DNA of 48,344 nt, taken from positions 1 through 48,344 of the forward strand of contig CAJPPF010000001.1 in the NCBI GenBank assembly GCA_905372445.1, written 5' to 3'. Shown in pieces: positions 21,959 to 41,133 of the stretch (its first letter is position 1; every line of letters begins with the position of its first letter). The translations under genes and the position numbers were made by a program. This DNA comes from an uncultured Prevotella sp. (lineage in GTDB: Bacteria; Bacteroidota; Bacteroidia; Bacteroidales; Bacteroidaceae). Below the pieces are notes generated by a model. The model was given only the letters and a program-made list of their open reading frames with translations. It ran no database searches and was not told the DNA's origin.

Positions 21959-24589
21959 TTATCCTTTTATGAGGTCAACCACAGCGTTGACAGCTTGAAG
22001 AAGCCCCGACGCGTCCTTACCGCCAGCCTGAGCGAAGTGAGGCTGGCCGCCACCGCCACCCTTGATGTGCTTAGCAGCTTCACGGACAAGCTTACCTGCA
22101 TTCATTCCGGCAGCAACCATATCATCGCTGAGCATGATATTCAATGACGGACGTCCCTGTTCCTCTGCACCTATGACACAGACGAGTCTCTCAGGCACAG
22201 CCTCGCGAATCTTAAACACAAGGTCCTTTGCTGATGCAGCGTCAAGAGGGATTACAGCCTTAACGACTGTATATCCTGCAATATTCTCCGCCTTCTCTAC
22301 GAGATTGTTCTTTAAGCGTTCAACGCGTTGCATGCGGAAACTCTCGATCTGCTTCTTAAGCTCGGCATTGTCGTTGATGAACTTTTCAATAGTAGCGTGC
22401 AGGTCTTTTGTGTTGTTGAACATACCACGTATGTCGCGAATAATGTTCTCCATCTCATAGATCATCTCCTCCATGTTCTTCCCAGTGACTGCCTCTATAC
22501 GGCGTATACCTGCGGCAACACTTGCCTCGGAAATAATCTTGAACATACCGATACGACCTGTTGAATGCGCATGAATACCACCACAGAACTCTACTGACGG
22601 ACCGAACTGGATGACACGGACCGTATCTCCGTACTTCTCGCCAAAGAGAGCGATAGCACCAAGCTCCTTTGCTTTCTCTATAGGTGTGTCGCGATGCTCC
22701 TGAATCTGAATGTCCTCACGTATCATAGCGTTCACCATGCGCTCTACCTCACGCAACTGCTCGTCGCTGACTTTCTCGAAATGAGAGAAGTCGAAGCGCA
22801 GAGTGTCAGGCGAGACGTATGAGCCCTTCTGCTCCACATGCTCGCCAAGAACCTGTTTCAACGCATAGTCAAGAAGGTGTGTGGCAGTGTGGTTGGCAGC
22901 TGACGCATCGCGCTTTTCGATATCAACACAAGCCATATATTCGGCAGTGAGGTTCTTTGGAAGCTCTGCAACGATGTGTACAGTCTGTCCGTTCTCCCTC
23001 TTCGTGTCAATGATATTCACTGTCTCATCCTCAGAGACGAGCACACCTTGTTCACCTACCTGCCCACCCATCTCTCCATAGAACGGAGTATTATTGAGAA
23101 CAATCTCATAGAAGGTCTTTTTCTGCTGCTTCACCATGCGATAGCGAATGATGCGGCAGTTGTATTCCGAATAGTCATAGCCCACAAACTGCTGCTCGTG
23201 GCTGATGTCGAAGCCTTCAACAGCTACCCAGTCGCCGTTCTCTACCTGGGCAGCATTGCGTGCACGGTTCTTCTGTGCCTCCATCTCTTCGTCAAACTTC
23301 ACAGCGTCAACAGTGATACCGTTCTCACGGCATATAAGTTCTGTGAGGTCGAGAGGGAAACCGTAGGTATCGAAAAGACGGAATGCCTTGCTGCCGTCGA
23401 GCACGCTCTTTCCTTCTTTCTTTATCTCGTCAATTGCCTCCGTCAGCATAGAGATACCTTTGTCGAGGGTACGGAGGAACGAGTCTTCCTCTTCCTTAAT
23501 GACACGCCCGATGAGTTCGCGCTGTGCAGGCAGTTCAGGATAAGCGTCGCCCATCTCCTCAACGAGGACAGGAAGCAGCTTGTATATGAACGACTCTTTC
23601 TGGTCGAGGAATGTATATGCGTAGCGGACAGCACGGCGAAGGATGCGGCGAATAACATATCCTGCCTTGGCATTTCCCGGGAGCTGACCGTCAGCAATAG
23701 AGAAAGCAACAGCACGCAGGTGGTCGGAGATGACACGCATTGCCACGTCTACGTCCTCTGTCTTACCGTATTCCTTGCCTGAGAGGCGTGAAATCTCCTT
23801 GATGAACGGCTGGAAAATATCAGTATCGTAGTTTGAATTCTTGCCTTGTATGGCACGGACGAGGCGCTCAAACCCCATACCTGTGTCGATGACATTCATA
23901 GAAAGATTCTCAAGTGAGCCGTCAGACTTACGGTTGAACTGCATGAACACGATGTTCCAAATTTCGATTACCTGCGGGTCGTCTTTATTTACGAGCTCAC
24001 GTCCGGGCACCTTTGCCTTCTCCTCGGCGCTGCGCGAGTCGAGATGAATCTCCGAACAAGGACCGCAAGGACCCGTATCACCCATCTCCCAGAAGTTGTC
24101 GTGCTTGTTGCCGTCGATGATATGATCGGCAGGAACATGCTTCAGCCAGAACCGTGCAGCCTCTTCGTCGCGACCGAGATTCTCCTCCTTTGAACCCTCG
24201 AACACCGTCACATACAAGTCTGCAGGATTGAGTTTTAGGACATCAACGAGATATTCCCATGCCATGTCGATAGCACCTTCCTTAAAATAGTCGCCGAACG
24301 ACCAGTTGCCGAGCATCTCGAACATTGTATGGTGGTATGTGTCATGACCTACTTCCTCAAGGTCGTTGTGCTTACCTGATACTCGCAGACACTTCTGCGA
24401 GTCTGCCCTGCGGCGTGGCTCCGGGTCACGTGTGCCGAGGATGATATCCTTCCACTGGTTCATACCCGCATTGGTGAACATCAGCGTAGGGTCATCCTTC
24501 ACAACCATCGGAGCAGAAGGAACAATAACATGCCCCTTATCCTTGAAAAAATTCTTATACGATTCACGTATCTCTTTTGCAGTCATCAT
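21959..24589 (-). CDS. alaS: Alanine--tRNA ligase
   Basis: [29 protein letters not shown], editing HTATH/EFCGG, C-terminal GGGGG. Confidence 0.98.
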
Positions 24590-24760
24590 TTTCTTTGCTG
24601 TTTGACTATTGTATTGTTTCCATTAAATATTTGCGGGCACAAAGGTACGGTAAAATTTTCAATTTTAGTCATCTTTGCCCTTACAACATTTAACTTTGAG
24701 CCAAAATTCCTTTGCCATTCGTTCTTTTTTTTGTAAATTTGCTCAAAAATCAAGATACAC

Positions 24761-25108
24761 ATGGCATTAAACACCGAAAAAGATCTAAAGCTCTACTACT
24801 CCATAAAAGAGGTGGCAGAGATGTTCAAAGTCAACCAAAGCACACTACGCTACTGGGAGACAGTATTCAAGCAAATCCAGCCGAGGACCAATGCAAAAGG
24901 TGTGCGCCAGTATACCAAGCAGAACATCGAGGAGATTCGTATTGTATACAACCTGGTCAAGGTGCGTGGTTTCAAGCTTGAGTCGGCAAAGAAAGCCATC
25001 AATGCCAACCGTCATGGTGCAGACAAATCGACAGAGATAATCGACACGCTGATCTCGTGCCGCAATCAACTGCAGGAGGTGAAGAAACAACTTGACACTA
25101 TCGTGTGA
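24761..25108 (+). CDS. MerR-family HTH transcriptional regulator
   Basis: YYSIKEVAEMFKVNQSTLRYWE; divergent from alaS. Confidence 0.88.
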   Translation: MALNTEKDLKLYYSIKEVAEMFKVNQSTLRYWETVFKQIQPRTNAKGVRQYTKQNIEEIRIVYNLVKVRGFKLESAKKAINANRHGADKSTEIIDTLISCRNQLQEVKKQLDTIV

Positions 25109-25354
25109 TGTCTTTTACACGAAAATGACAGAAAATAAAATAGGAAAACAAGAAGATTACAAAAATAAGGCATCTTCTTGTTTTTTTGCGTCGCCTAGTG
25201 TTGGTCCTTTATTAAGCCACGTGTATATCAGAATTATACCTCTGTTCGGAATAAGCATTGCATAAAACAACCGGCACGCGCCTTCTCACGCCATGCCAAT
25301 TATAAACACGGAAAGTATACATCAGTATATGTAAATAAAACGCCATGCGCCAGC

Positions 25355-25453
25355 GTAGGGGTGTGATTTATCACGTTCCTCCCCTCCCCCAAAAAATCCA
25401 ACAGACGTTGCGACGTGCTTGCAAAGACGGAACGTGAGGAATCACGCCCCTTC
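25355..25453. repeat. REP doublet (family B)
   Basis: GTAGGGGTGTGATTTATCACGTTCC ... GGAACGTGAGGAATCACGCCCCTTC. Confidence 0.85.
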
Positions 25454-25851
25454 AGTTTATGCGAATAAACTTAACAAAAAGAGCATTCTAAGCATACATA
25501 CAGCCGATATTTGCCGGCACGTTGTCGTTCATTGCCGAAAAACGCTTGTTTTTGGTATTACGCACAAGGTGGTGATAATCAGCATTATAACCTTGTTTAA
25601 TGCCGACAAAATTAAAAAACAGTTTCAAGAACCGTAGTTTCTTGAGTCTAATTACTACGTTTCTTGCCGATGAAACCACTGTTTTTATCATCAAGAACCG
25701 CAGCTTTTTGAGCGAAAAAGCACGGAATTAAGCTGTTTTCAGCTTTGGTCGCTTCTCGAAGAAGTGGTTTTATGCCATGCTAACTTGGCAAATCATTGTT
25801 TTTAATTTTCTATTTCACTAAAAATCACGAAGGTATTTTTTCTTGACTAAA

Positions 25852-26043
25852 CCTAAATCGGTCAATAGATCGCAGTGCAGTTTTATTGTCAAAGGAAAAA
25901 GTTTGCCTACTGCTTTTGCATGCTTGTATGGTATATTACCAGCCTTATTATCTTGATGTAGCCCGCTACACCCAAGGTAACACAGCAGCTGGTCTGCTCA
26001 ACAATCATACGAAATCAGTTCGAAATCTATTGATCGATTTTGG
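25852..26043 (+). mobile_element. MITE A, diverged ~192-bp copy nested in element C
   Basis: CCTAAATCGGTCAATAGATCGCAGTG ... TCTATTGATCGATTTTGG; flanks CTAAA/CTCAA (decayed TSD). Confidence 0.85.
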
Positions 26044-26100
26044 CTCAACATCAAGTTTCGAATAATATTTCTGTAACTTTTACAAGATATTTCTTATCCC

Positions 26101-26268
26101 GAACTACGAGCCCCAGCACTCTGCTTCACCTGCCATACGTAGAGAAGTGAGCGAATTTTTAGCGGAGCCTTCAGTTTACCAAAGCCCACGGTGTGCCACA
26201 ACACGCGGTTGGGCAAAGGCGAGATAGCTTGCTACAGTCATCAAAACAAGTAAAAAAGAATATTTCAT
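26101..26268 (-). pseudogene. Glycerophosphodiester phosphodiesterase (GDPD) 5' fragment
   Basis: Hand translation MKYSFLLVLMTVASYLAFAQPRVVAHRGLW*TEGSAKNSLTSLRMAGEAECWGS*F: signal peptide + AHRG...NS...GS(E)F motif, two in-frame stops, truncated at element C. Confidence 0.8.
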
Positions 26269-26270
26269 CT

Positions 26271-27734
26271 TCAGCCGCTTATTTGAGTATCGCGCCAATT
26301 GACTAAATAGAGATGTTCTGTCGCACGTGTGAAAGCTGTGTATAGCCAGTGAATGTAGTCAGGCGTGAGCATGTCGTCGGTCATATAACCCTGGTCGAGA
26401 TATACGTGCTCCCACTGTCCGCCCTGTGCTTTATGGCAGGTGATGGCATAGGCATACTTTATCTGAAGGGCATTGAAATGGTCGTCTTCGCGCACTGCTT
26501 TCATCTTTTCTGCCTTGGTATTGATGTCGAAATAGTCGTCGTAGACTCCGGCAAAGAGTTGCTGTTGCTGCTCGTTGGTCAGCGCCGGCGACTCCGAGGC
26601 GAGGCTGTCGGTGATGACGGTGAGCGTCGTCTCGTAGTTGTCGTAGTCGGGGAAACGCAGCATGACATCGGCGAAATGCAGTCCATACAGTTCGCGGTTA
26701 TTCCTCACACGATGCACTACAGCGATATCACCATTCGCCAAGAATGTCGGGATAGTGTCTACAGGCTGATTGTTCTTTATACACTCGGCTATCTCCTGTT
26801 CTGTCCAATGGTAGCTGTTCTTCACAATCATGAGCCGATCGCCCGTCTCCAACTCCTCCTCACGACCGAGAATCATATTCCTTATGCCCTGATTATATAT
26901 GTTTGCACGCTTGTTGGACCGTGTGATGACCATGGTCCCGTCTACGCCTACCTTCGAGTAGCTGCTATCCAGCTGCTCAATCAAGTCATTACCCTCGACG
27001 ATATGGATATCAGGAAAGCCGGCAAAGCGTATCTTCGGCAGTTGGGTGATATTGTCATGGGTTATCATCTGTCGTATGACAGTGGCATTATACAATATGC
27101 CCGAGTCACGGCTCTGGCGCAGCACCTCGTTAATGTCGCACTCAAAGACCCTCATGCCATAGCCCGCGATACAACGCGCATCAAGTGCCGGCGACTCCTC
27201 TGCACCCACCGGTGGCAGCTGGGCCTTGTCGCCGATAAGCATCAGATGGCAGTTATGACCTGAATAGACATACCGCATAAGGTCGTCGAGCAGGCAGCCG
27301 CTGCCGAACAATCCATCGCCTGAAGCGAAGCCGCCATTGGCAATCATCGATGCCTCATCGACAATGAAAAGTGTGTTCTGGTGCATATTCTGATTGAGGT
27401 TAAACCCGGTGTCGACACCCGAGAATGCTTTCTGGCGGTATATCTTTCTGTGAATGGTAAGCGCCGGGCGGTCACTGTTCAACGAGAACATTTTTGCCGC
27501 GCGTCCCGTCGGTGCAAGCAGAACAACACGCTGCCCTAACCTGATCAACGTATTCACGATGGAAGAGGCAAGCGTGGTCTTACCCGTGCCTGCCGAGCCA
27601 CGCATCAACATCACAGTATTGCCTTCGCTACAAAACATGAAATCGGAAAAGGCACGAGTAGCGGCAAGCTGCTCGTCAGTGAGCGGAAAACCAAAAGATT
27701 TACATATTTCGGATGTTAATTGCTCGTTGTTCAT
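26271..27734 (-). CDS. RecD-like SF1B ATP-dependent DNA helicase
   Basis: [54 protein letters not shown] 27734 preferred. Confidence 0.9.
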   Translation of the reverse strand: MNNEQLTSEICKSFGFPLTDEQLAATRAFSDFMFCSEGNTVMLMRGSAGTGKTTLASSIVNTLIRLGQRVVLLAPTGRAAKMFSLNSDRPALTIHRKIYRQKAFSGVDTGFNLNQNMHQNTLFIVDEASMIANGGFASGDGLFGSGCLLDDLMRYVYSGHNCHLMLIGDKAQLPPVGAEESPALDARCIAGYGMRVFECDINEVLRQSRDSGILYNATVIRQMITHDNITQLPKIRFAGFPDIHIVEGNDLIEQLDSSYSKVGVDGTMVITRSNKRANIYNQGIRNMILGREEELETGDRLMIVKNSYHWTEQEIAECIKNNQPVDTIPTFLANGDIAVVHRVRNNRELYGLHFADVMLRFPDYDNYETTLTVITDSLASESPALTNEQQQQLFAGVYDDYFDINTKAEKMKAVREDDHFNALQIKYAYAITCHKAQGGQWEHVYLDQGYMTDDMLTPDYIHWLYTAFTRATEHLYLVNWRDTQISG

Positions 27735-27814
27735 TGTTATATGAAAACTATTTTGTACTTTTGCAGTATGCAATAGATTTAGTTACAAAGATAATAATTA
27801 TTTTGGAAACGTTC

Positions 27815-27961
27815 ATGAGAAAATGGAATAATTACCTGCTGATAGTCTGCATAGCGGCACTTTTGGCTATCTGCGTGATGAGTATCTATCGCCCTGCACA
27901 AACCCAAGATACAACAGATGAACCGATCAGCGACACAACATCTTATAGTCAGAATAAGTAA
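27815..27961 (+). CDS. Small single-TM protein (48 aa)
   Basis: MRKWNNYLLIVCIAALLAICVMSIYRP...; downstream of a TACTTTTG box (~27757); overlaps the DUF3822 start. Confidence 0.5.
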   Translation: MRKWNNYLLIVCIAALLAICVMSIYRPAQTQDTTDEPISDTTSYSQNK

Positions 27962-28706
27962 AGACAGTCTCTCGTTTGCCATGGACTGCGGCGACGAGGA
28001 AGGAATATGCTTTGAGCCTTACGCGATGAAGAGCGGAATCTCCATTGCCGCCAACCTGCGCGAGGCTTTCAAAACGAGCGATCTGCTCAGCAGGGCAGGC
28101 TCTAAGGCAACGGTACTTGTGGACTCGCCGACCCTCATAATGCCTCTCGAAGATTTCCAGGAGGACGAGGTCGAGGAGCAATATGACATGACCTACCCTT
28201 CGCTGAAAGGCATGTCTGTGGAGACATGCGTGCTTCCGGCATTCAGAAACATGGTGGCGTTTGCCGTCGAAAAGGACGTTAAGACGGTGCTATGCGACAA
28301 TTTTGAGAAAGTGAAGCTGCGCTCGCTGATGATTTCAGTGTGGGAATTTCTACAAAGAAGAAACGGAGCAGCAAACAACAAGAAGCTATATGCCTACTTC
28401 CACGACGGGAAAATTGATATATGTTCCTTCCACCGCAACCGCTTCACGTTTGCCAACACATTCGACGCTGACAACATTCAAAACGAGATGTATTACATTC
28501 TCGGTGCATGGAAACTCATTGGCGCTAAAGCGGCAAACGACGATTTATTCATGTGCGGAAAGATTGACAACAGAGAACAACTGACCGCCGAGCTGAAGAA
28601 TTTCCTCTCCCGGGTGTTCTATATCAATCCGTCTGCCGACTTCAACAGAGCACCGGCAACACAGATTATGAATTTCCCGCTCGACACTATGCTGCAGTTT
28701 GTGTAA
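27918..28706 (+). CDS. DUF3822 family protein
   Basis: SIAANLREAFK, FANTF, YINPSADFNR; usual position upstream of rsmD. Confidence 0.75.
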   Translation: MNRSATQHLIVRISKDSLSFAMDCGDEEGICFEPYAMKSGISIAANLREAFKTSDLLSRAGSKATVLVDSPTLIMPLEDFQEDEVEEQYDMTYPSLKGMSVETCVLPAFRNMVAFAVEKDVKTVLCDNFEKVKLRSLMISVWEFLQRRNGAANNKKLYAYFHDGKIDICSFHRNRFTFANTFDADNIQNEMYYILGAWKLIGAKAANDDLFMCGKIDNREQLTAELKNFLSRVFYINPSADFNRAPATQIMNFPLDTMLQFV

Positions 28707-28730
28707 AAAACATGAAAAGAAAACGCAAGA

Positions 28731-29261
28731 ATGAGAGTAATAACAGGAAAATACAAAAACCGTCATTTTGATATACCACGTTCGTTCAAGGCGCGACCAA
28801 CGACCGACTTTGCCAAGGAGAACATATTTAATGTGATGAACGCATACGTGGATTTTGAGGACTGCACAGCCCTCGACCTCTTTTCAGGCACAGGCTGTAT
28901 ATCACTTGAACTGCTCTCGCGCGGTGCAAAGACCGTGGTGAGCGTGGAAGCCGACAGAGACCATGCTAACTTCATACGGCGGTGTCTGACAAAACTCGGC
29001 GACGAGAATTGTATGCTCATACGTGGCGATGTGTTCCGCTTCGTGAAGTCATGCAAACAGAAGTTCGACTTTATCTTTGCCGATCCTCCCTACGCTCTGC
29101 CAAACCTCGAAACCATTCCCGACCTTATTTTCGAAAAAAAACTGCTCTCCGAAGACGGTGTCTTTGTCTTTGAACATGGCAAACACAATGATTTCTCCGC
29201 ACATCCTAACTTTGTGGAGCACCGCGCATACGGCAGTGTGAACTTCTCTATATTCAAATAA
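28731..29261 (+). CDS. rsmD: 16S rRNA m2G966 methyltransferase
   Basis: MRVITGKYK, RPTTD.AKE, LDLFSGTG, ADPPY. Confidence 0.92.
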   Translation: MRVITGKYKNRHFDIPRSFKARPTTDFAKENIFNVMNAYVDFEDCTALDLFSGTGCISLELLSRGAKTVVSVEADRDHANFIRRCLTKLGDENCMLIRGDVFRFVKSCKQKFDFIFADPPYALPNLETIPDLIFEKKLLSEDGVFVFEHGKHNDFSAHPNFVEHRAYGSVNFSIFK

Positions 29262-29448
29262 ACCTAAACATATATAAAACCACTTTTACGCCAGTATAGG
29301 ATTTTCCGTGTTTGCAAATGGTGTAGCGAGAACCGTAAATGACGTTGCGTGAACCGAAGGGAGGGTATACACCCTTAACAATTAGCCGGTTGTGGAGAAA
29401 AAAGAAAACAGAAGAAATCGCATAATGCGATACAATGCTCGATTGGTG

Positions 29449-30474
29449 TTATTTCAAAATCTCCATTTTCCAACTGAAGCCGATGTTGAGAATCTGCTCA
29501 CTATCATTGAATACTCCGTTCGGATTGGTGTTTTTTCCCCAACAGTGGCTGTAGTGAGCATGAAGCCTGACCTTTTCATTCTTCAACGGGAAGAACTCGC
29601 ATCCTGCTCCAAGACGTAGTATCTCTGTTCCGTCGTGCACTGTCCAGTCGTTTCCATTCCCGGTTTTGTTGACATCGTAGCTGACTTTTGCAAAGCAATG
29701 AAACATATCCGACGCTTTGTATACGAGCTGGCTCATGATGCTGTAATCCTTGAACAGGTCGCTGCCTTTTGAAGCGCGGCTTAGTAAATCCACATCCCAT
29801 GTCAGCCGGCTACTGATGTCGAACCTGTTGCCCGAGGCAAAGTAGTTGATGTATTTGCCTGGCATATATTCAATAAAGTTGAGCGAATAGAAGGTGTGGA
29901 AGAAATCAATGTTTCCATTCCACAACAGGTTGTATGCCCACATCTCACTCGGTTTGCCGTTCATCGCCTTATATGGTCTGGTGAATGGACTCTGGCATAC
30001 CTGGGCGTAGAGAGTGTGCTGCTTGTCGCTGCTATTCAGGACAAGGTTAAGTCCCCATTGATAGCAGTCGTAGTTCATGCAAAACTCGCTGAGTTGATAT
30101 ATGTCTATCGGTGCCGGTTCCGTCTCCCAACAGCCTACAGCGACTATCCATTTTCCTGCCTGCAGGGATATGTTCTCGCTGGTTTTATAGTTGATGTAGA
30201 GCCAGTCGGTGGCATCGAAGAACGATGCGTCCTTGTTCGGTTTGTTCAGACGCTGACGGTATTTATATGAGAAGCGGTCGTTGATATCACCTTCGAGTTT
30301 GAAGTCGACAATGTTTCCCTTTAGTCCGTTCAATTCCTTTTTATGGTTGTCACGATTATAATCAGCGCGGGCTTCGACCTTAAGCTTTATGTTTGAGGTC
30401 GATTCCTGAGCTGTCAGCGTGGTGCAATATATCAACGATAATATGGTCTGCACGAGGAATAATAATCTTTTCAT
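29449..30474 (-). CDS. Putative porin (outer-membrane beta-barrel)
   Basis: Signal peptide; FSYKYRQRLNK, DATDW motifs; amphipathic aromatic strands. Confidence 0.65.
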   Translation of the reverse strand: MKRLLFLVQTILSLIYCTTLTAQESTSNIKLKVEARADYNRDNHKKELNGLKGNIVDFKLEGDINDRFSYKYRQRLNKPNKDASFFDATDWLYINYKTSENISLQAGKWIVAVGCWETEPAPIDIYQLSEFCMNYDCYQWGLNLVLNSSDKQHTLYAQVCQSPFTRPYKAMNGKPSEMWAYNLLWNGNIDFFHTFYSLNFIEYMPGKYINYFASGNRFDISSRLTWDVDLLSRASKGSDLFKDYSIMSQLVYKASDMFHCFAKVSYDVNKTGNGNDWTVHDGTEILRLGAGCEFFPLKNEKVRLHAHYSHCWGKNTNPNGVFNDSEQILNIGFSWKMEILK

Positions 30475-30516
30475 ATCTTTAAAGGGATTGTGAGCTTAAG
30501 GTATTGGGTGTAGTGT

Positions 30517-31443
30517 TTACTGTTGCGACAGGTCGAGCAGTCGTTTCTTGTTCCACAGACCATAGACCGCGCTTACCGTATCTGACGACATGAACGACTT
30601 TATCTTCTCATTGTGCATATAGTCGATAAGGCTTGAGAAGTCGTCTTCGTTAAGTATGGTCTCCACCCGCACACGTTTCTTTTTTTCGTATCCGCCTATC
30701 ACCTCGTGGAGTGTCACGCCACGCTTGATATTGTTGAGTATGAAGTCAACAATCTTTTCATGCTCGTCAGTGATGATGTGCACTCGTATCTTCTGGTTGA
30801 TGCTTGCCATGAAATAGTTGACTATAAGTCCGTTGAGCCATGTGCCTATCAGACCTATGATGACAAGCTTGGCAGGATTGATGAGTATGGCAGAGCAACA
30901 AATCAGTCCTCCGCCAATAGTTACTGATGTGCCGAGGCTTATGTGCAGATACTTATTGATGATTTTCGCCATGATGTCCAGTCCTCCGGTTGAGGCGTTG
31001 ATGCTGAACAGAATACTCTGCGATGCGCTCAAAACAAGCACAAAAGCCAAAAGGTCGAACCAAGGATTTAGTATAACCTGCCCCGTGCCTTCTATTGTTT
31101 CTGCAAAAAACGACTGATCCACAGGGCATATCTTGCCGATTAAGTCGACCATAGGACCGAGAATCAATGCCGTGTAGACTGTTTTCACCCCGAACTCGTT
31201 GCCGATAAGCAGAAAAGCAAGGACAAGGAGAATGGCATTGATGATAAAGATGTAGGTTCCTACTGACACTACTGGGATGAGCTTTGCGAAGACTAACGAG
31301 AGTCCGGTTATTGAACCGATGATGAGCTTACTTGGTATTAGAAAGTAATATACTGCTATGGCGGCAACAAACATACCTGCCGTGAGTATAAATAACTCTA
31401 TCCAGAATTTCTTAGTTGCTAACAATGAAAGTATTTGTTTCAT
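30517..31443 (-). CDS. YitT family membrane protein (DUF161 + DUF2179)
   Basis: ASTGGLDI motif, multi-TM region, RGVT..GGY C-terminal domain. Confidence 0.85.
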   Translation of the reverse strand: MKQILSLLATKKFWIELFILTAGMFVAAIAVYYFLIPSKLIIGSITGLSLVFAKLIPVVSVGTYIFIINAILLVLAFLLIGNEFGVKTVYTALILGPMVDLIGKICPVDQSFFAETIEGTGQVILNPWFDLLAFVLVLSASQSILFSINASTGGLDIMAKIINKYLHISLGTSVTIGGGLICCSAILINPAKLVIIGLIGTWLNGLIVNYFMASINQKIRVHIITDEHEKIVDFILNNIKRGVTLHEVIGGYEKKKRVRVETILNEDDFSSLIDYMHNEKIKSFMSSDTVSAVYGLWNKKRLLDLSQQ

Positions 31444-31493
31444 GTTTTTATTCTTGTATAGGTGATTGTATAGGTGTTATTCTTTAGGCAATA

Positions 31494-31527
31494 AAGGGAG
31501 ACCCTCGACTGTACGAGAATCTCCCTT
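31494..31527 (-). terminator. Hairpin between gdhA and the YitT gene
   Basis: AAGGGAGACCCTCG-ACTGTA-CGAGAATCTCCCTT imperfect stem. Confidence 0.55.
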
Positions 31528-31600
31528 ATAATAGAAATCTTTAAGCCATCGGATAAGACGTCATGCTCTCCGCGCACTTGTAAAGTGTGAATTATCAAGC

Positions 31601-31717
31601 TATTATACTATACCTTGTGCCATCATCGCGGAAAAGTCCTTGGCTGCGCTGTCGCTACGCCGAGCTTGTTCGCTTGTGATGGCAGGTATATTATACTACA
31701 CCTTGTGCCATCATCGC
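31601..31717. repeat. 29-bp duplication of the gdhA 3' end around a 59-bp insert
   Basis: TATTATACTA(T/C)ACCTTGTGCCATCATCGC at 31601..31629 and 31689..31717. Confidence 0.9.
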
Positions 31718-33028
31718 TTTTGCAACCTTCATGAAGCCGGCGATGTTTGCACCTTTCACATAGTTTACATAGCCGTCAGTCTGGCGACCGTACTGCTCGC
31801 AAGCCTCGTGAATGCCATGCATTATCTTATGCAGACGCTCGTCAACTTCCTCGTTTGACCAGCTGAGACGCTCTGAGTTCTGTGTCATCTCAAGACCGGA
31901 TGTTGCAACACCACCGGCGTTTACAGCCTTGCCTGGTGCGAAAATCATCTTTGCTTCGATGAACTTGTCGACAGCCTCTGCCGTGCAACCCATGTTACTT
32001 ACTTCTGCTACAAGGAGAGTACCGTTCTTGATAAGCTTATCTGCGTCTTCGCCTGATACCTCGTTCTGTGTAGCGCAAGGCAGTGCGATGTCAACTTTCT
32101 GTTCCCAAGGACGACGACCGGCAAAGAATGTTGCCTCCGGATACTTCTCTGCATAAGGAGCACAGATATCGTTGCCTGAAGCACGAAGCTCGAGCATATA
32201 TTCAATCTTCTCACCTGCTATACCTGTCGGGTCATAGATGTAGCCGTCAGGACCAGAGATAGTGACAACCTTGCCACCCAGTTCTGTTGCTTTCTTTGCT
32301 GCACCCCAAGCCACATTACCAAAGCCTGACAGAGCAATTGTCTTGCCCTTGAGGTCGATGTTGTGGGTCTGGCACATCTGGTTCACGAAGTAAAGAGCGC
32401 CATAACCGGTTGCTTCCGGACGGATGCGGCTGCCGCCCCATTCGAGACCCTTACCCGTGAGAACACCCTGGAACTGATGTGTGAGCTTCTTATACATGCC
32501 GAAGAGGTAACCGATTTCGCGTGCACCAACACCGATATCACCAGCAGGAACGTCCTCGTCAGGACCGATATGACGATAGAGCTCGGTCATGAAAGAATGG
32601 CAGAAACGCATAACTTCTGCATCGCTCTTACCACGTGGTGAGAAATCAGAACCACCCTTACCACCACCCATAGGAAGTGTTGTAAGAGCATTCTTGAATG
32701 TCTGCTCGAAACCGAGGAACTTCAATATTGAAAGGTTTACTGATGCGTGGAAGCGAAGACCGCCCTTGTAAGGACCAATGGCAGAGTTGAACTGTACGCG
32801 GTAGCCAATGTTCACCTGTACGTCGCCCTTGTCGTCAACCCATGGCACACGGAAAGTGATGATACGCTCTGGCTCTACCAAGCGCTCAATAATACTTGCC
32901 TTTTCAAATTCAGGGTGCTGGTTATACACTTCTTCTACAGATAGTAGCACCTCACGAACTGCCTGAAGATACTCTAACTCACCTGGATGCTTCTGTTCCA
33001 GCTGCTGCATGATGTTATTTACATTCAT
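31691..33028 (-). CDS. gdhA: NAD(P)-specific glutamate dehydrogenase
   Basis: GPYKGGLRFH, MGGGKGGSDF, DVPAGDIGVG, RPEATGYG, GFGNV. Confidence 0.96.
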   Translation of the reverse strand: MNVNNIMQQLEQKHPGELEYLQAVREVLLSVEEVYNQHPEFEKASIIERLVEPERIITFRVPWVDDKGDVQVNIGYRVQFNSAIGPYKGGLRFHASVNLSILKFLGFEQTFKNALTTLPMGGGKGGSDFSPRGKSDAEVMRFCHSFMTELYRHIGPDEDVPAGDIGVGAREIGYLFGMYKKLTHQFQGVLTGKGLEWGGSRIRPEATGYGALYFVNQMCQTHNIDLKGKTIALSGFGNVAWGAAKKATELGGKVVTISGPDGYIYDPTGIAGEKIEYMLELRASGNDICAPYAEKYPEATFFAGRRPWEQKVDIALPCATQNEVSGEDADKLIKNGTLLVAEVSNMGCTAEAVDKFIEAKMIFAPGKAVNAGGVATSGLEMTQNSERLSWSNEEVDERLHKIMHGIHEACEQYGRQTDGYVNYVKGANIAGFMKVAKAMMAQGVV

Positions 33029-33414
33029 AGCTTGACTTGTGATTTATAGGTTTGTAGTTTACAAAATGTTATTGATTCTGATGCAAATATAGTTCATCTA
33101 TATGAAACCACCAAAGAAAATCACAATAATTTTTATTGCGATAATACAAAATGTCAGGCGCTTGCCTTTATTTCTCAAAACGTTTATTTACAATATGATA
33201 GTTTATTGTTGATGTTTTTACATTATCAATACTAATTTACCGACGTAAATAGTAAAATTATAATTAAAAGCTGCGTTTTGATTATTAGTGCGTAGCTCGC
33301 AGAATTTTGCGTTAAACCCAAAGCGTCATTATGCTGCGTTATGTCTTTTCTTTGGATTTTTGTCTTCTCTACTATCATTTTTCATTATCTTTGCAAGCAA
33401 AAAATCTTGTGTTT

Positions 33415-34374
33415 ATGACAATCAGCGTTATCGGTAGTGGGAAAATAGTAATGGAAGTTCTTGAGATGTTACGTGCGGATATTCCGACAATAATACCTAT
33501 GTCTATATATGCTCATAGCAACATAGACAATGCCAACAGGATAGCAGTGGAGTTCGGTATTAAAGAGGTATTTAACGACTATGACGAACTGCTGAGCCTT
33601 GATAAATCCGATTTCCTGTATATAGCGAACGTCAATACTGCCCATTATGACTATGCACGTCGTGCGCTGGAGGCTGGACGTAACGTCATAATAGAGAAAC
33701 CGATATGTATGACACTCGCCGAGACGGAGCATCTTGTAAGTCTTGCACGCTCTAAACAACTAATGCTGATTGAAGCTGTCTCGCTGTTGCACATGCCGAA
33801 TATTGAACTGCTTCGTGCAAAACTGTCGGACATCGGACGCGTTCATCTCGTAGAATGTGACTACTCGCAATACTCCAGTCGTTACGATCGTTACATGAAC
33901 GGTGATGTCGCTCCGGCTTTTAATCCCGGGCAAGGAGGAGGGGCGTTGCGCGACCTGAACGTGTACAACATCAATTTCGTAATCGCTCTTTTTGGCGCAC
34001 CACGTAATGTGAAGTATGTTGCCAACCGCGGATTCAATGGTGTTGACACCTCTGGCATACTCCTTCTTCAATATACCGACTTCCTATGTGTATGCTCGGC
34101 AGGCAAGGACTGCCACGGTCTGCCTTACGGACAGATACATGGCGAGCGTGGAGTGCTTCGTGTTGATGGACCTGTTAGCGTGCTAAATTCATTCTATACA
34201 GTATGCCATTCGGGTACAAAAAAGCATAATGTCAATACGTTCAAGCATCGTCTTGCCCACGAATTCGCGTCAATAGAGCGTATGTTCATGGCTCGCGATT
34301 ATGCCGCATTCAACCGCTATCAGGACATCTCCCTTGCTGTCATGAAGGTTATAGAAGAGGCAAGCGCTGTATAA
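33415..34374 (+). CDS. Gfo/Idh/MocA family oxidoreductase
   Basis: IGSGKI Rossmann motif, IIEKP, GGGALRDLNVY; TATCTTTG box at 33386..33393 supports ATG 33415. Confidence 0.88.
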   Translation: MTISVIGSGKIVMEVLEMLRADIPTIIPMSIYAHSNIDNANRIAVEFGIKEVFNDYDELLSLDKSDFLYIANVNTAHYDYARRALEAGRNVIIEKPICMTLAETEHLVSLARSKQLMLIEAVSLLHMPNIELLRAKLSDIGRVHLVECDYSQYSSRYDRYMNGDVAPAFNPGQGGGALRDLNVYNINFVIALFGAPRNVKYVANRGFNGVDTSGILLLQYTDFLCVCSAGKDCHGLPYGQIHGERGVLRVDGPVSVLNSFYTVCHSGTKKHNVNTFKHRLAHEFASIERMFMARDYAAFNRYQDISLAVMKVIEEASAV

Positions 34375-34879
34375 ACCTTAAGCGAATGACCGTATTTGGA
34401 ATAAACTGACACGTTCATTCTATGCGAGTTCGGTATAAGAAAGTTCTTGTAACAGTTGCAGATATCTTGTCAAGAACAGGCGTATGTAAATAAAAATCAT
34501 CATCACGATTTTAAGCGAAATAGAAAATCAAAAGCAACGATTTGCCAAGTCAGCACGGCATAAAACCGTGTTTTCAAGAACCAACAAGAGCTAAAAACTG
34601 TCTAATTCCATGCTTTTTCGCTCAAAAAGCGGCGGTTCTTTATGATAAAAACAGCGGTTTCATCGGCAAGAAACGTAGGAATCAGTTTCAAGAAACGGCG
34701 GTTCTTGAAACTTATTCGTCTTGTTGTATACATCAAAATGTTCTATTTTGCTGATTACCAATGCCTTGTGCGTAACACCAAAAATAAGAGTTTTTCGTCA
34801 ACGAACGACAACGCGCCTGCAAATATTGGCTGTATGCATGCTTAGAACAGCCTTTTTGTTAAGTTTATTCGCATAAACT

Positions 34880-34979
34880 GTAGGGGCGTGATTTATCACG
34901 TTCCATCTTGGTAATCACGTCGCAACGTCTGTTGGATTATTTTTTTTGGATTTCGGAACGTGATAAATCACGCCCCTAC
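34880..34979. repeat. REP doublet (family B), perfect 25-bp arms
   Basis: GTAGGGGCGTGATTTATCACGTTCC (34880..34904) / GGAACGTGATAAATCACGCCCCTAC (34955..34979). Confidence 0.92.
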
Positions 34980-35051
34980 GCTGGTGCGTGCCGTTTTATT
35001 TACATATACTGATGTATACTTTCCGTGTTTATAATTGATGTTGCGTCAGCC

Positions 35052-35268
35052 GTAGGGGCGTGATTTATCACGTTCCGCCATTGCAATAAAAACTTTATAT
35101 TTGCACATGTTATGTAAGGTTGCTGTCATTTACCGTGATGCTTGCTGAGCTTTAATCTTTACCATCCGTTTTGTTTTGACATTTGTTACAGTGTGGCAAG
35201 GCTGTAGTCATTTGCTGGTACATTTGCGGAGGTTGTGCAATGCGGAACGTGATAAATCACGCCCCTAC
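35052..35268. repeat. REP doublet (family B), perfect arms with long spacer
   Basis: Same 25-mer at 35052..35076 and inverted at 35244..35268. Confidence 0.92.
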
Positions 35269-35381
35269 GCTGGCGCATGCCGGTTGTTTTATGAATTCTT
35301 ATCCCGAACTGAGATATTATTCTGCTTTGTGTTCAGCTTTTCTTTTACTGTCGGCAACGATTCCGACTATACAGGTGGGCG

Positions 35382-36032
35382 TTACTTTGTTGTCACTACG
35401 AGTGTCTTACCTGCACGGAAGTCTGCATCGTTGACAAGATATCCCTTTATCTTCTTTCCACCAGAAGTGATATCGGTGATTTTTCTGCCCTTGCCATGGC
35501 GTTCAATGATGAAGTTGCGTGCAGGAGAAGCCACGGTGATGCGGTCGAAAGTGTAGCGATGATAACCGCAGCGGAGTGTTGATGTGAGTTCTACGTCAAT
35601 ATCGTAGTCGTCGAGATGAACGCGATAGTAGCCCGGATGAGCTTCTTCGTTGTCGTGTGAAAACGTCGAAGCAAAGTTGTCGACTTTAATGCGTCTGCTT
35701 GCTACAGGCATGAATGGCACGTGCAGGAGGTTCCAATGTCCCTTGTTTGTGTGTGCAAAGCCACATATCGTCTTGTCCTCATACTGATAGCCGGAGCCGC
35801 TGTGATACTGTGTGACCGGCGAAAGTTGCACCATTGCATTAGGGAGGCTCACGCCGGGAAATGTCTCTCCTCCCCATGTACGCGTCTTTCGATGGCGTTC
35901 ATAGTGCAGGTCGGCTTTGTCCCAGAGTGTTGTTGTGCCGAGGAAAGGGTTAACATAGTCTGTCAGATTCTGCGCGTGTAAGTCTGTAGATGATGCATAG
36001 ATAAGTGCTAGGATAATGAAAAAAGTCTTCAT
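35382..36032 (-). pseudogene. GH92 alpha-1,2-mannosidase with large in-frame internal deletion
   Basis: N-terminal GH92 motifs (YVNPFLGT, TFPG...P.AMVQLSP, GYQY.D..I.GF.HT, EEAHPGYY.V.L, HRYTF) joined directly to a C-terminal-like tail (FDRITV...); 216 aa versus the usual ~700+; catalytic barrel absent. Confidence 0.75.
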
Positions 36033-36088
36033 AAATTTTGTGTATTCAGTTATTTTGCGTACTTTTGCAGTCGATTGCGATAAGGAAT

Positions 36089-36170
36089 GCGCCTGTGGCG
36101 AAACTGGTAGACGCGCCAGACTTAGGATCTGGTGTCTTGCGATGTGCAGGTTCGAGTCCTGTCAGGCGCA
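36089..36170 (+). tRNA. tRNA-Leu (TAG)
   Basis: GCGCCTG acceptor stem, CCAGA-CTTAGGA-TCTGG anticodon arm, long variable arm, GGTTCGAGTCC; TACTTTTG box at 36060..36067. Confidence 0.97.
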
Positions 36171-36174
36171 CGAT

Positions 36175-36202
36175 AAGAGAGTTCTTCGGAACTCTTTTTT
36201 TT
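36175..36202 (+). terminator. Intrinsic terminator after tRNA-Leu
   Basis: AGAGTTC-TTCG-GAACTCT followed by a T-run. Confidence 0.85.
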
Positions 36203-36265
36203 GTGTTTACAGTCTGCGAGTTGCCGTTGCCGGCAGCGTGGATAACAGATGATTACTCCACATTA

Positions 36266-37273
36266 TTATATTGACATCTGCCGTGCTTTCTCTATGATTG
36301 TGTCTAAGCCATGCAACATGTCTAAGTCTTTCATAGAGCAGTACACATCAGGCTCAATGCCATTCTCCGTTGATATGCCGTCGGCGTCATACATCGGACA
36401 TGCCGAGAACCTCACTCCCCAGCCGTTTGGCAGCTCACTTGAGAACGGCAGTCCTGCTCCGCCTCCGGTTCTATCACCTATGACGACGGCGTTAGGGCAT
36501 CGTTTCATATACTTCACGAACTCGTTTGCCGCAGAGAATACTCCACGATTGGTGAGCACGAAGACAGGCTTCTGCCAACGTATATATGAGCTTGGCTCAA
36601 TATACTGCTCCTGTAGTTTAGAGAAATCGTTATGTCCGCGCCCAGTCTTATGCTGCATATAACCGACAAGGGTCTTCTTGTTGACGAATCGTGACGCAAG
36701 GATCTCCGCCGAAGTCATCATACCTCCACCATTTTCGCGCACATCGATGATAAGGCTGCGGCATGACATGAAGTGAAAGAGAATATCGTCGATATTTCCA
36801 TTGCCCGGCTGGCTGCCAAACGACGGGATACGCATGTAGCCGATGTTGTCGTCGAGTATCTTATAGTATATACCTGCAGCGATGCGATAGTCTGTACCTA
36901 TATATCTTTTATATAAGGTCTCGTCGAAGTTTACAGGGTAGTCTTCTTTCCACGACCAGTTGCGTCCGATATCGAAAGCGGAATACAGATTCACATGTCC
37001 GTCGCGCAGTTCGCCGAGCATTTTTGTAAGTACTTCAAACAGCTGTTCGCTATTTGCACCTGCTACCTGTGGTGCATAACGGGCGTGTACCTCCTGCCAG
37101 TCTACTCCGAGAGACTGCTTCTTCAGGTCGAAGAAGCAATAATGTTCGTCCATTATTTTCCATAATGCTTCGAAGTTGCCGCTGTTATCGTCGTTGAACT
37201 GCTCTTCGTCTATACAGCTGACGGTACACACCGACAGAGCCAACAGACAGAGAACGGCAAATATTTCTTTCAT
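36266..37273 (-). CDS. S41 family peptidase, lipoprotein
   Basis: Lipobox (TVSC), LRDGH, IIDVRENGGG, FSAANEF, GIEPD; ATG 37273 preferred. Confidence 0.88.
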   Translation of the reverse strand: MKEIFAVLCLLALSVCTVSCIDEEQFNDDNSGNFEALWKIMDEHYCFFDLKKQSLGVDWQEVHARYAPQVAGANSEQLFEVLTKMLGELRDGHVNLYSAFDIGRNWSWKEDYPVNFDETLYKRYIGTDYRIAAGIYYKILDDNIGYMRIPSFGSQPGNGNIDDILFHFMSCRSLIIDVRENGGGMMTSAEILASRFVNKKTLVGYMQHKTGRGHNDFSKLQEQYIEPSSYIRWQKPVFVLTNRGVFSAANEFVKYMKRCPNAVVIGDRTGGGAGLPFSSELPNGWGVRFSACPMYDADGISTENGIEPDVYCSMKDLDMLHGLDTIIEKARQMSI

Positions 37274-40940: not shown

Positions 40941-41133
40941 CCCAAAACGGTCAATAGATTCCTAAGTGATTTCGTCTGATTGTTGAGTAGATCAGCAGTC
41001 TTGTTACCGCAGGCGTAGCGGGCTACGACAAGGTAATAAGACTGCTAAGATGCCACACAAGCGGGCGAAAGCAGTAGGAAAGCTCTTGATCTTTGATAAT
41101 AGAACTACACCGTGGTCTATTGACCGTTTTGGG
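40941..41133 (-). mobile_element. MITE A, complete 193-bp copy
   Basis: Perfect 18-bp TIR CCCAAAACGGTCAATAGA; TTAAA TSD. Confidence 0.92.

What the first reader, a model, noticed from the sequence alone, without database searches (positions are those of the whole stretch)
25238..35315. Nested non-coding element C: two inverted copies with IS982-like ends and different passenger elements
Seen: 25238..26105 and 34422..35315 are reverse-complement homologs over most of their length. Each is bounded by inverted ends with core AGTTCGGGATAAGAA, has no credible ORF, and contains a 22-bp array and a REPIN. Copy 1 also has a MITE A (25852..26043); copy 2 instead has a second REPIN. Recalled: ACCT(C/G)AGTTCG-type termini resemble Bacteroidetes IS982-family ends. 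Inference: a large non-autonomous carrier that spreads REPINs and arrays and acts as a landing site for other elements, i.e. a multi-tier mobile-element system. This is the best candidate here for an undescribed system. The inverted pair could also invert the ~8.3 kb between them.
Basis: partly seen in the sequence, partly recalled or inferred. Interest (0 to 1): 0.72.

Follow-up and report, generated by a model that had tools for sequence, protein, structure and literature searches.

The report
Nested IS982-type MITE pair, conserved core
The two inverted segments are copies of a non-coding mobile-element family that borrows the ends of a resident IS982 insertion sequence, and its 389-base centre looks like bent or protein-binding DNA that is still being kept intact.

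Summary
Window 25238-26110 (+) and 34422-35315 (-) are inverted homologs. They have no credible ORF, IS982-type inverted ends, REP-like palindrome doublets and a 4 x 22-bp array. A 195-bp MITE sits only in copy 1, and an extra REP doublet only in copy 2.

They belong to a family with 78 BLAST hits in this 2.33-Mb, 236-contig MAG. The ends match an intact 1045-bp IS982-family IS elsewhere in the genome, which has an 8-bp target duplication. So these two copies are large composite MITEs, a known kind. The closest described relative is P. gingivalis MITE700.

The constant part of the family is not the ends but a 389-nt core. Both ends are recognisable in only 10 of 44 testable copies. The core:
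- does not code, and no RNA structure was detected;
- has A/T tracts and conserved positions phased at about 10.8 bp;
- changes about 4-fold less at its conserved columns than at its other columns between conspecific strains.

I read the core as a DNA-level module (bent or protein-binding), function unknown. No evidence of inversion was found. BLAST found no full core in other genomes searched; a sequence profile gave weak hits in some congeners.

The parts
25238..26110 (+). Element C copy 1 (873 bp), a composite non-autonomous IS982-type element. No target duplication (0/8).
25238..25257 (+). Left terminal inverted repeat of copy 1 (ACCTCTGTTCGGAATAAGCA)
25354..25452 (.). REP-like doublet of copy 1: arms at 25354-25379 and 25428-25452, 87% complementary
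   Evidence: (I11)
25459..25847 (+). 389-nt conserved non-coding core of copy 1
25626..25713 (+). Four tandem 22-bp units (nnnRAACCGCCGTTTCTTGnnn type) inside the core
   Evidence: (D7)
25852..26046 (+). Nested MITE A, a separate family with TIR CCCAAAACGGTCAATAGACC. Absent from copy 2.
26048..26110 (+). Tail of copy 1: a degenerate internal left-type end plus the right terminal inverted repeat. It has the form of a 62-bp mini-MITE.
34422..35315 (-). Element C copy 2 (894 bp), inverted relative to copy 1
34422..34485 (-). Tail of copy 2 with the right terminal inverted repeat (34422-34441)
34486..34874 (-). 389-nt core of copy 2, 81.5% identical to the core of copy 1
34620..34707 (-). 22-bp array of copy 2
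34880..35269 (.). Two REP-like doublets of copy 2. Arms at 34880-34904 / 34955-34979 and at 35051-35078 / 35242-35269, each pair 100% complementary.
   Evidence: I6-I8
35296..35315 (-). Left terminal inverted repeat of copy 2
34414..34421 (.). Target-site duplication of copy 2, first half (TTCATTCT). Its partner is 35316-35323 (ATTATTCT); 6 of 8 match.
35316..35323 (.). Target-site duplication of copy 2, second half

Best explanation
The two segments are inverted members of a high-copy family of composite, non-autonomous IS982-family elements (large MITEs of about 0.5-0.9 kb). Each has 20-bp IS982-type terminal inverted repeats and carries no transposase.

Inferred: it is moved in trans by the DDE transposase of the resident IS982-family IS, which makes 8-bp target duplications.

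Between the ends lie, in order: REP-like palindrome doublets; a 389-nt core unrelated to the IS; and a 62-bp tail that is itself a minimal end-to-end MITE. Later insertions (MITE A, further REP doublets) account for the differences between the two copies.

The core is the constant part of the family. I infer, at odds of about 0.5, that it works as DNA rather than as RNA or protein. It is a phased A/T-tract, 22-bp-repeat module that is intrinsically bent and/or bound on one face by a host protein, and it is kept by purifying selection at many loci. What it does for the cell or for the element is not known.

Shown: the anatomy, the family, the shared ends with an intact IS982, the target duplications, the phasing and the reduced substitution rate. 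Inferred: trans-mobilisation, protein binding or bending, and selection as the cause of the reduced rate.
For: Ends and parent IS:
- An intact IS at G000:C156:1416-2460 has ACGCGAGTTCGGTATAAGAT ... TTCTTATCCCGAACTCGCGT, an 8/8 duplication ATGTAAAT and a 308-aa ORF. The ORF hits PF13612 and NF033520 IS982 at 214 bits, above the cut-off of 130.
- The same ends bound MITEs of 60-62, 125 (8/8 duplication) and 190 bp (7/8).
- Of the 10 core-bearing copies with both ends, 6 have a duplication of at least 6/8 allowing an offset of +-1. The random expectation is 0.035 per pair.

Family:
- 78 hits on 67 contigs, 65 of them 300 nt or longer.
- All 65 are intergenic.
- 40 of 472 contig ends lie within 700 nt of a core.

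The core is neither coding nor a detectably structured RNA:
- No conserved open frame and no period-3 signal.
- RNAalifold finds essentially no consensus structure, -1.8 and -0.06.
- No Rfam family.
- The folding z-score is the same on both strands, -2.61 and -2.65.

DNA-level signal:
- Column conservation is periodic at about 10.8 nt, with normalised power 11.2. None of 2000 permutations reached this.
- AA/TT periodicity at 10.3-11.3 bp has a median of 10.5 in 50 copies. The genome background has a median of 2.7 and a 95th percentile of 6.7. All 50 of 50 copies exceed that 95th percentile.

Constraint:
- 148 of 390 core columns are at least 95% conserved, while mean pairwise identity is 0.76.
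- In 23 orthologous pairs under 3% diverged (own genome against conspecific metagenome contigs), conserved columns changed at 16/3369 and other columns at 106/5420, p=1e-9.
- Tail columns average 0.59 conservation against 0.84 for the core.
Against: - Recognisable IS982 ends are a minority. A right end was found in 25 of 59 testable copies, a left end in 20 of 50, and both in 10 of 44.
- Left arms fall into several unrelated classes, and 21 of 62 copies have no tail motif.
- Copy 1 has no target duplication (0/8).
- No clean empty-site allele was found. The one presence/absence case (L104 against C131) is a 540-bp indel flanked by a 33-bp direct repeat.
- The element shares only about 31 bp with the IS, and only one intact IS copy is assembled.
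- The low substitution rate at conserved columns could partly reflect patchy exchange between paralogs or assembly chimeras in low-coverage contigs, rather than selection.
- MITE A, taken as a control, also has uneven column conservation (sd 0.12).
- No protein partner, bending measurement or RNA data exist.
Confidence: 0.7

Rival explanations
1. The 389-nt core is an independent unit, either a host-exapted intergenic element or one spread by another mechanism. On this reading the IS982-type ends, REP doublets and MITEs merely accumulate next to it. The two window copies then only look like one bounded element.
For: - The core is present in all 78 hits, while both ends are recognisable in 10 of 44.
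- In 8 of 64 copies a right-type IS982 end abuts the core from the outside. Another 8 have an 80-nt arm with no TIR, and 23 have other left flanks.
- 21 of 62 have no tail motif.
- The core has sharp, constant boundaries and a length of 388-391 nt in 49 of 50 copies.
- The core is better conserved than the ends.
Against: - 6 of the 10 copies with both ends have target duplications spanning the whole unit, so at least these moved as one element.
- The tail follows the core in the family consensus.
- No other transposase or recombinase is linked to the core.
- Decay of the ends after insertion explains their absence equally well.
Confidence: 0.25
2. It is an ordinary, functionless decaying MITE family. 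On this reading the uneven conservation, and the low substitution rate at conserved columns, come from subfamily structure, exchange between paralogs and assembly artefacts.
For: - Differences between orthologous alleles are patchy.
- 5 of 11 patches have a paralog donor at 96-100%.
- Several metagenome contigs have 2-4x coverage.
- MITE A also shows uneven conservation.
Against: - Conserved columns change at 0.47%, below the mostly coding far flanks (1.0%) and the arms (2.5%).
- Pairwise identity is unimodal, with 1148 of 1225 pairs between 0.70 and 0.80. That argues against strong subfamilies.
- The conserved positions are phased with the DNA helix. Neutral decay does not predict this.
Confidence: 0.2
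3. The core is a multi-copy non-coding RNA gene.
For: - It is conserved and intergenic.
- Both strands fold about 2.6 sd better than shuffles.
- TAnnTTTG-like motifs are visible by eye on both strands. This motif is a recalled Bacteroidetes -7 consensus and was not tested.
Against: - No consensus structure or compensatory changes.
- No Rfam match.
- The folding signal is equal on both strands.
- The periodicity is about 10.8 nt, which is a property of double-stranded DNA.
- There is no orientation bias toward neighbouring genes.
Confidence: 0.07
4. The inverted pair acts as a switch that inverts the 8.3 kb between the copies.
For: The copies are inverted and share a 46-nt exact stretch. That could support rare homologous recombination.
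Against: - Overall identity is 82%.
- The segment holds ordinary housekeeping genes.
- L106 and L107 (one 37-kb contig) and L054 keep the window's junctions.
- A 9045-nt contig of run X1 spans 25628-34671 collinearly.
- Copy 2 keeps a 6/8 target duplication, which an inversion between the copies would have split.
Confidence: 0.03

Closest known systems
MITE700 and MITE239 of Porphyromonas gingivalis, which share TIRs with ISPg3 (Naito et al. 2008, PMC2575886, passages read; TIR table in PMC4596501, passages read)
   Same: Both are non-autonomous elements that carry the TIRs of a resident IS. The printed ends (ISPg3 ACGTCAGTTCGA, MITE239 ACGTGAGTTCGATATAAAGGAA) resemble ACG(C/T)(G/C)AGTTCGGGATAAGAA here. 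MITE700 is about 720 bp, its interior is unrelated to the IS, and it has a highly variable region just inside the left TIR with several subtypes. Element C has all of these features.
   Different: Whether the interiors are homologous was not tested, because no P. gingivalis sequence was on hand. The printed copy numbers are 7-14; here there are 78 hits. No phasing or constraint analysis is reported for MITE700 in the passages I read. PMC4596501 lists ISPg3 as IS5 family. PMC13305171 (abstract and passages) calls IS195 of P. gingivalis IS982 family. That ISPg3 equals IS195 is recalled, not checked.
MITECca01 of a Cardinium endosymbiont, derived from the IS982-family ISCca4 (PMC9769881, passages read)
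   Same: An IS982-family-derived MITE, high in copy number (169 copies), mostly intergenic or inside other mobile elements, and thought to be maintained by intact parental IS copies.
   Different: MITECca01 is about 240 bp and its sequence derives from the parent IS. Element C is 0.5-0.9 kb and shares only about 31 terminal bp with its IS. Its interior is foreign to the IS and conserved.
BrickBuilt and MITEPgRS of P. gingivalis, MITEs with internal tandem repeats (PMC4596501, abstract and passages; PMC2575886, passages)
   Same: A Bacteroidales MITE with an internal array of 22-23-nt tandem direct repeats. It is always intergenic, and TIRs are intact in only a minority of copies (4 of 19 for BrickBuilt).
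   Different: BrickBuilt has IS5-type ends and a variable number of repeats. Here the array is fixed at 4 units (core length 388-391 nt in 49 of 50 copies) and is embedded in a longer conserved core.
Exapted intergenic repeats such as E. coli BIME/REP and Neisseria Correia elements
   Same: Dispersed intergenic mosaics of palindromic units. They are reported to bind architectural proteins or to carry terminators and promoters. They are modular, with alternative arms.
   Different: No binding protein, terminator or promoter activity has been shown here. The core is much longer (389 nt) and has a helical-phase signature across about 250 nt.

Membership tests
MITE (non-autonomous IS derivative) | Terminal inverted repeats equal or near-equal to those of an autonomous IS in the same genome | tested here: met
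   The ends of both copies match the ends of the IS at C156:1416-2460.
MITE (non-autonomous IS derivative) | Target-site duplication of the parent's length (8 bp) | tested here: inconclusive
   Copy 2 has 6/8 and copy 1 has 0/8. Family-wide, 6 of the 10 copies with both ends reach 6/8 or more, against a random rate of 0.035.
MITE (non-autonomous IS derivative) | No transposase gene, small size, many copies | tested here: met
   No conserved ORF. Sizes are 873 and 894 bp. There are 78 hits.
MITE (non-autonomous IS derivative) | Mobility shown by filled and empty alleles | tested here: inconclusive
   The only presence/absence case (L104 against C131) is flanked by a 33-bp repeat, not an 8-bp duplication. 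Contigs laid on the window showed no empty allele.
IS982 family (parent IS) | DDE transposase matching the curated IS982 model above its cut-off | tested here: met
   NF033520 scores 214.3 bits against a cut-off of 130. PF13612 gives 9.4e-62.
IS982 family (parent IS) | An IS of about 1 kb with one ORF, TIRs and a short target duplication | tested here: met
   1045 bp, a 308-aa ORF, 20-bp TIRs and an 8/8 duplication. The family's size and duplication ranges are recalled from ISfinder, which was not consulted.
REPIN / RAYT system | Inverted doublets of a REP palindrome, many per genome | tested here: met
   252 REP units with 4 mismatches or fewer, 77 of them perfect. There are 72 convergent doublets, mostly spaced 73-76 or 83-89 nt.
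REPIN / RAYT system | A cognate RAYT (Y1 transposase) gene in the genome | tested here: not met
   PF01797 gives 0 matches in the own assembly, while the control genomes ring. The assembly is 89.6% complete, so absence is not proven. I call these units REP-like doublets, not REPINs.
Structured non-coding RNA | A conserved secondary structure with compensatory changes, or a match to a known family | tested here: not met
   RNAalifold gives -1.8 and -0.06. No Rfam family matches. Stems seen by eye do not covary.
Iteron-type origin or plasmid centromere | Tandem direct repeats of about 22 bp | tested here: met
   4 units phased at 22 bp. There are 88 phased motif pairs in the genome against 0 for the reversed control.
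Iteron-type origin or plasmid centromere | An adjacent rep or par gene, or plasmid ancestry | tested here: not met
   No ORF lies in or next to the element. There is no match in 72,556 plasmid or 50,697 phage records.

The most novel reading that the evidence does not exclude
The 389-nt core is a domesticated DNA module. It would be a helically phased A/T-tract and 22-bp-repeat scaffold that wraps or is bound by a host architectural protein. In this reading it was spread to 70 or more intergenic sites by IS982-type ends that have since decayed, it is kept by purifying selection at each site, and it has profile-detectable relatives at unrelated loci in other species of the genus. That would make it a MITE-delivered chromosome-structuring or transcription-insulating element of Bacteroidales.
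Probability: 0.2. Interest if true: 0.7.

Novelty: new variant of a known kind. Interest (0 to 1): 0.45.

Why it matters
As a MITE the finding is ordinary. It explains much of the fragmentation of this MAG: 40 of 472 contig ends lie beside a core.

The less ordinary part is that a foreign 389-nt interior outlasts the transposon ends, keeps its conserved bases on one face of the helix, and changes about 4-fold more slowly at those bases between strains. If that reflects function, it would be a clear bacterial case of a MITE-borne DNA module co-opted at dozens of loci, in a gut or rumen-type Bacteroidales lineage where intergenic repeats are little studied. It would also give a concrete sequence to test for protein binding and DNA bending.

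Tried and rejected
- Rfam scan of 24500-36500. It found only a tRNA and two sub-threshold hits on REP doublets.
- Coding potential: none.
- RNAalifold: no structure.
- A script for folding z-scores timed out. It was replaced by strand folding on copy 1 only.
- BLAST of the core:
  - 0 of 40 relatives.
  - 2 marginal hits in 400 congeners.
  - No match in plasmid or phage records.
- Exact-pattern scan of genome contigs: 3 chance hits in other phyla.
- Sequencing runs: no RNA holder was listed.
- Contigs of 4 runs laid on 24300-36300. They break inside the repeats, so they cannot exclude inversion or show empty sites. The joints listed there involve repeat family members and were not used.
- Donor search for the divergent central patch of L107: no copy above 85%. 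The substitution spectrum is mixed (34 transitions, 26 transversions), so a DGR-like adenine-specific process was rejected.
- Regulon idea for the AACCGCCGTTT arrays. Flanking genes in other species are unrelated, so the occurrence upstream of parA-parB in the window was not taken as meaningful.
- Source-locus idea for the weak profile hits: their flanking genes differ.
- Pfam on the 54-aa broken ORF beside copy 1: no family.
- The search of earlier findings was not open.
Full report
**1. Observation**

The two segments are real inverted homologs. The repeat finder reports arms 25391-25847 / 34486-34942 (457 nt, 82%), 25285-25379 / 34955-35049 (95 nt, 91%) and 25261-25282 / 35272-35293 (22 nt, 95%).

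A pairwise alignment shows homology from end to end, broken by two large indels:
- A 195-bp insert at 25852-26046, present only in copy 1.
- About 220 nt holding an extra palindrome doublet, present only in copy 2.

Both copies end in inverted repeats built on AGTTCGGGATAAGAA. No ORF of 80 aa or more lies inside copy 1. Two non-conserved ORFs overlap the left arm of copy 2. Each copy holds four tandem 22-bp units and REP-like 25-mers. The longest stretch the two copies share exactly is 46 nt.

**2. The ends are IS982 ends**

Elsewhere in the same assembly, G000:C156:1416-2460 is a 1045-bp insertion sequence. Its ends are ACGCGAGTTCGGTATAAGAT ... TTCTTATCCCGAACTCGCGT, it has a perfect 8-bp duplication (ATGTAAAT), and it has one 308-aa ORF. 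The ORF matches PF13612 and the curated IS982 model NF033520 at 214 bits, against a cut-off of 130. Two further partial IS982-type transposases lie at contig ends.

The same ends bound MITEs of several sizes:
- 60-62 bp.
- 125 bp, with an 8/8 duplication.
- 190 bp, with a 7/8 duplication.

Element C shares only about 31 terminal bases with the IS.

Copy 2 keeps a 6/8 duplication and copy 1 has none. Among the 10 core-bearing copies with both ends recognisable, 6 have a duplication of at least 6/8 when the boundary may shift by one base. The same test on random pairs gives 0.035. So at least a subset moved as a unit from left end to right end, in the manner of the IS.

**3. The family**

Copy 1 gives 107 matches in its own genome. 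Its 389-nt centre (25459-25847) gives 78 hits at E<=1e-10 on 67 contigs, 65 of them 300 nt or longer. All 65 are intergenic in a crude ORF map. Their orientation toward neighbouring genes is not strongly biased: the upstream gene runs co-directionally in 26 of 45 cases, and the downstream gene runs opposite in 30 of 48. 40 of 472 contig ends lie within 700 nt of a core. The true copy number is therefore probably higher, and the family helps explain why the MAG has 236 contigs.

The family is a mosaic, and the core is the only constant part.

Left flanks of the core, 64 copies:

| Class | Copies |
|---|---|
| REP arm abuts the core | 21 |
| Right-type IS982 end abuts the core from outside | 8 |
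| Shared 80-nt arm with no TIR | 8 |
| Left TIR within 100 nt | 4 |
| Other | 23 |

Right flanks of the core, 62 copies:

| Class | Copies |
|---|---|
| Full 62-bp tail (internal left-type end plus right TIR) | 17 |
| Right TIR only | 7 |
| Internal end only | 10 |
| Directly followed by another MITE | 7 |
| None of these | 21 |

With a threshold of 3 mismatches in 13, a right TIR is found in 25 of 59 testable copies, a left TIR in 20 of 50, and both in 10 of 44. These are lower bounds, because the consensus still shows a degenerate tail.

**4. Passengers**

- MITE A is a separate family. It has 110 hits, 44 of them full length, with TIR CCCAAAACGGTCAATAGACC and TAA-like flanks. Four more copies lie in the window.
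- The REP 25-mer occurs 252 times with 4 mismatches or fewer, 77 times perfectly, and forms 72 convergent doublets. 95 of the 252 units lie within 600 nt of a core.
- No Y1/RAYT transposase was found in the 89.6%-complete assembly. I therefore call these units REP-like doublets rather than REPINs.
- In a conspecific strain (L107), the MITE A inside copy 1 carries a further ~385-bp MITE with TIR TATTGGTGTCCGGTAAA. Nesting is real and is still going on.

**5. What the core is not**

- Not coding. There is no conserved frame and no period-3 signal in conservation.
- No sign of a structured RNA. RNAalifold on 50 copies gives -1.8 and -0.06 kcal/mol, no Rfam family matches, and stems visible by eye do not covary.
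- Copy 1 folds about 2.6 sd better than shuffles on both strands alike. That is what short DNA palindromes give.

**6. What the core looks like**

50 full copies have a mean pairwise identity of 0.76. 1148 of the 1225 pairs fall between 0.70 and 0.80. Yet 148 of 390 columns are at least 95% conserved.

The conservation profile has its strongest periodicity at 10.8 nt, with normalised power 11.2. None of 2000 permutations reached this. The signal persists at 5.9-7.0 when the 22-bp array is masked.

AA/TT dinucleotides show the same period. Median power is 10.5 in the 50 copies. Random genome windows give a median of 2.7 and a 95th percentile of 6.7. All 50 of 50 copies lie above that 95th percentile, and 28 of 50 above the 99th. 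14 of the 16 A/T tracts in the consensus fall in one half of the 10.8-nt turn. The MITE A control peaks at only 4.2.

Core length is 388-391 nt in 49 of 50 copies. MITE A is also length-stable by a cruder measure, so I give this little weight.

**7. Constraint in place**

A pattern scan of metagenome contigs returned 71 loci, 59 of them with a core. 61 of the 71 map to this genome, mostly at 95-99.8% identity, so they are conspecific strains.

Divergence over 40 orthologous pairs:

| Region | Differences | Rate |
|---|---|---|
| Core | 769/15444 | 5.0% |
| Arms | 323/12690 | 2.5% |
| Far flanks (mostly coding) | 402/40407 | 1.0% |

The excess in the core is patchy. For 5 of 11 patches a paralog donor at 96-100% exists. 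This fits exchange between copies, or assembly chimeras in contigs of 2-4x coverage.

For others no donor was found. The clearest is L107, the ortholog of copy 1, whose arms are nearly identical while a 310-nt central patch is at most 85% identical to any copy on hand. This remains unexplained.

Restricting to 23 pairs under 3% diverged, family-conserved columns changed at 16/3369 (0.47%) and the other columns at 106/5420 (1.96%), p=1e-9. With all 36 pairs the contrast is stronger. Some pairs share a locus, so they are not fully independent.

The conserved columns thus change more slowly than the mostly coding flanks. I read this as purifying selection acting in place. The caveat is that exchange between paralogs can mimic part of it.

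**8. Distribution**

- BLAST with the core found nothing in 40 relatives and only two marginal hits in 400 congeneric genomes.
- An exact-pattern scan of one genome per species found only 3 chance hits in other phyla.
- Plasmid and phage records gave no match.
- A sequence-only profile of core positions 1-165 gave weak hits in 15 of 90 congeneric and 2 of 60 other genomes. The best is 30.7 bits, E 8.7e-7 per genome. The hits lie at unrelated loci, and some are followed by arrays of a similar palindromic unit.
- 22-bp-phased AACCGCCGTTT pairs occur 88 times in this genome, against 0 for the reversed control. They occur 1-8 times in 15 of 400 congeners.
- In G105 and G049 the palindromic unit is itself a ~45-copy REP-like family. 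Some arrays end in an inverted unit that forms a terminator-like hairpin.

The building blocks are therefore old in the genus. The amplified 389-nt core was found only in this species among the genomes searched.

**9. Inversion**

No support was found.
- L106 and L107 lie on one 37-kb contig, and L054 comes from another assembly. All three keep the window's inner and outer junctions.
- A 9045-nt contig of run X1 runs collinearly from 25628 to 34671.
- The other laid contigs break inside the repeats, so rare inversions cannot be excluded.
- The 8.3 kb between the copies holds a RecD-like helicase, a DUF3822 protein, an RsmD-type methyltransferase, a porin, a YitT-family protein, glutamate dehydrogenase and an oxidoreductase.

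**10. Comparison and verdict**

IS982-derived MITEs are described: MITECca01, 240 bp, 169 copies (PMC9769881, passages read). In P. gingivalis, MITE239 and the ~720-bp MITE700 carry the TIRs of ISPg3, whose printed ends resemble ours. MITE700 has an interior unrelated to the IS and a variable region next to the left TIR (PMC2575886 and PMC4596501, passages read). MITEs with 23-nt internal arrays are also known: BrickBuilt (PMC4596501, abstract and passages).

The two copies are therefore members of a known kind. What departs from the described cases is the conserved, helically phased core that outlasts the ends. A literature search for MITE together with helical periodicity, curved DNA, A-tract or intergenic repeat returned five papers, none on such an element (listing only).

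Limits of this work:
- The genome is a fragmented MAG.
- The metagenome contigs have low coverage.
- No RNA data were available.
- The taxon was not named by any tool.

Noticed in passing
G000:C156:1416-2460 (outside the window): An intact 1045-bp IS982-family IS with a 308-aa transposase and an 8/8 target duplication ATGTAAAT. It is the likely source of transposase for all MITEs with these ends. Partial IS982-type transposases also lie at C171:3-650 and C129:31-420.
   Followed up: yes
window 8745-8933, 40942-41133, 42698-42889, 45434-45622: Four more copies of MITE A (about 190 bp, TIR CCCAAAACGGTCAATAGACC, TAA-like flanks). The family has 110 hits in the genome, 44 of them full length.
   Followed up: partly
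window 35382-36032 (-): A 216-aa ORF that matches only the N-terminal domain of glycoside hydrolase family 92. It ends about 70 bp from the left end of copy 2 and looks like a truncated gene. Conspecific locus L106 additionally lacks about 380 bp here (window 35506-35885).
   Followed up: partly
window 26106-26268 (-): A short broken ORF directly after the helicase gene. It has a signal-peptide-like start and one in-frame stop, and it runs into the right end of copy 1. By recall it resembles the start of a glycerophosphodiester phosphodiesterase, but Pfam gave no hit. A deletion next to the element would explain why copy 1 has no target duplication.
   Followed up: partly
window 15135-15290: Three direct units and one inverted unit of the AACCGCCGTTT motif, two of them 22 bp apart, in the intergenic region between surE and parA-parB. 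A similar stand-alone array ending in a 13-bp perfect hairpin lies at G000:C5 about 31610-31690 (L130).
   Followed up: partly
L107:565-954 (conspecific metagenome contig, ortholog of copy 1): A further ~385-bp MITE (TIR TATTGGTGTCCGGTAAA, with REP units inside) inserted in the MITE A of copy 1 in another strain. It has a ~7-8-bp duplication and is absent from the window. The same MITE type abuts cores at C38, C39, C40 and C51.
   Followed up: partly
L107:1057-1366 against window 25476-25785: At the orthologous site of copy 1, another strain has a central 310-nt core patch about 19% different, while the arms are nearly identical. No donor above 85% exists among the copies on hand. Similar sharp patches occur at other loci. 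Exchange between paralogs or assembly chimeras is likely, but this is not resolved.
   Followed up: partly
L114:1440-1570 (G366:C13): In another species of the genus, six tandem 22-bp units TGAAAACC(A/G)CCGTTTTTTGAAT follow a terminator-like hairpin. They precede four GTTGACT motifs and, read by eye and not checked with a tRNA tool, a tRNA gene.
   Followed up: no
window 36089-36170 (+): A tRNA gene (59.7 bits) lies just beyond the GH92 fragment.
   Followed up: no
window 31601-31629 and 31689-31717: Two 29-nt direct repeats, 97% identical and 88 nt apart, at the 3' (stop-codon) end of the glutamate dehydrogenase gene (31691-33028, -); the second overlaps its last codons.
   Followed up: no
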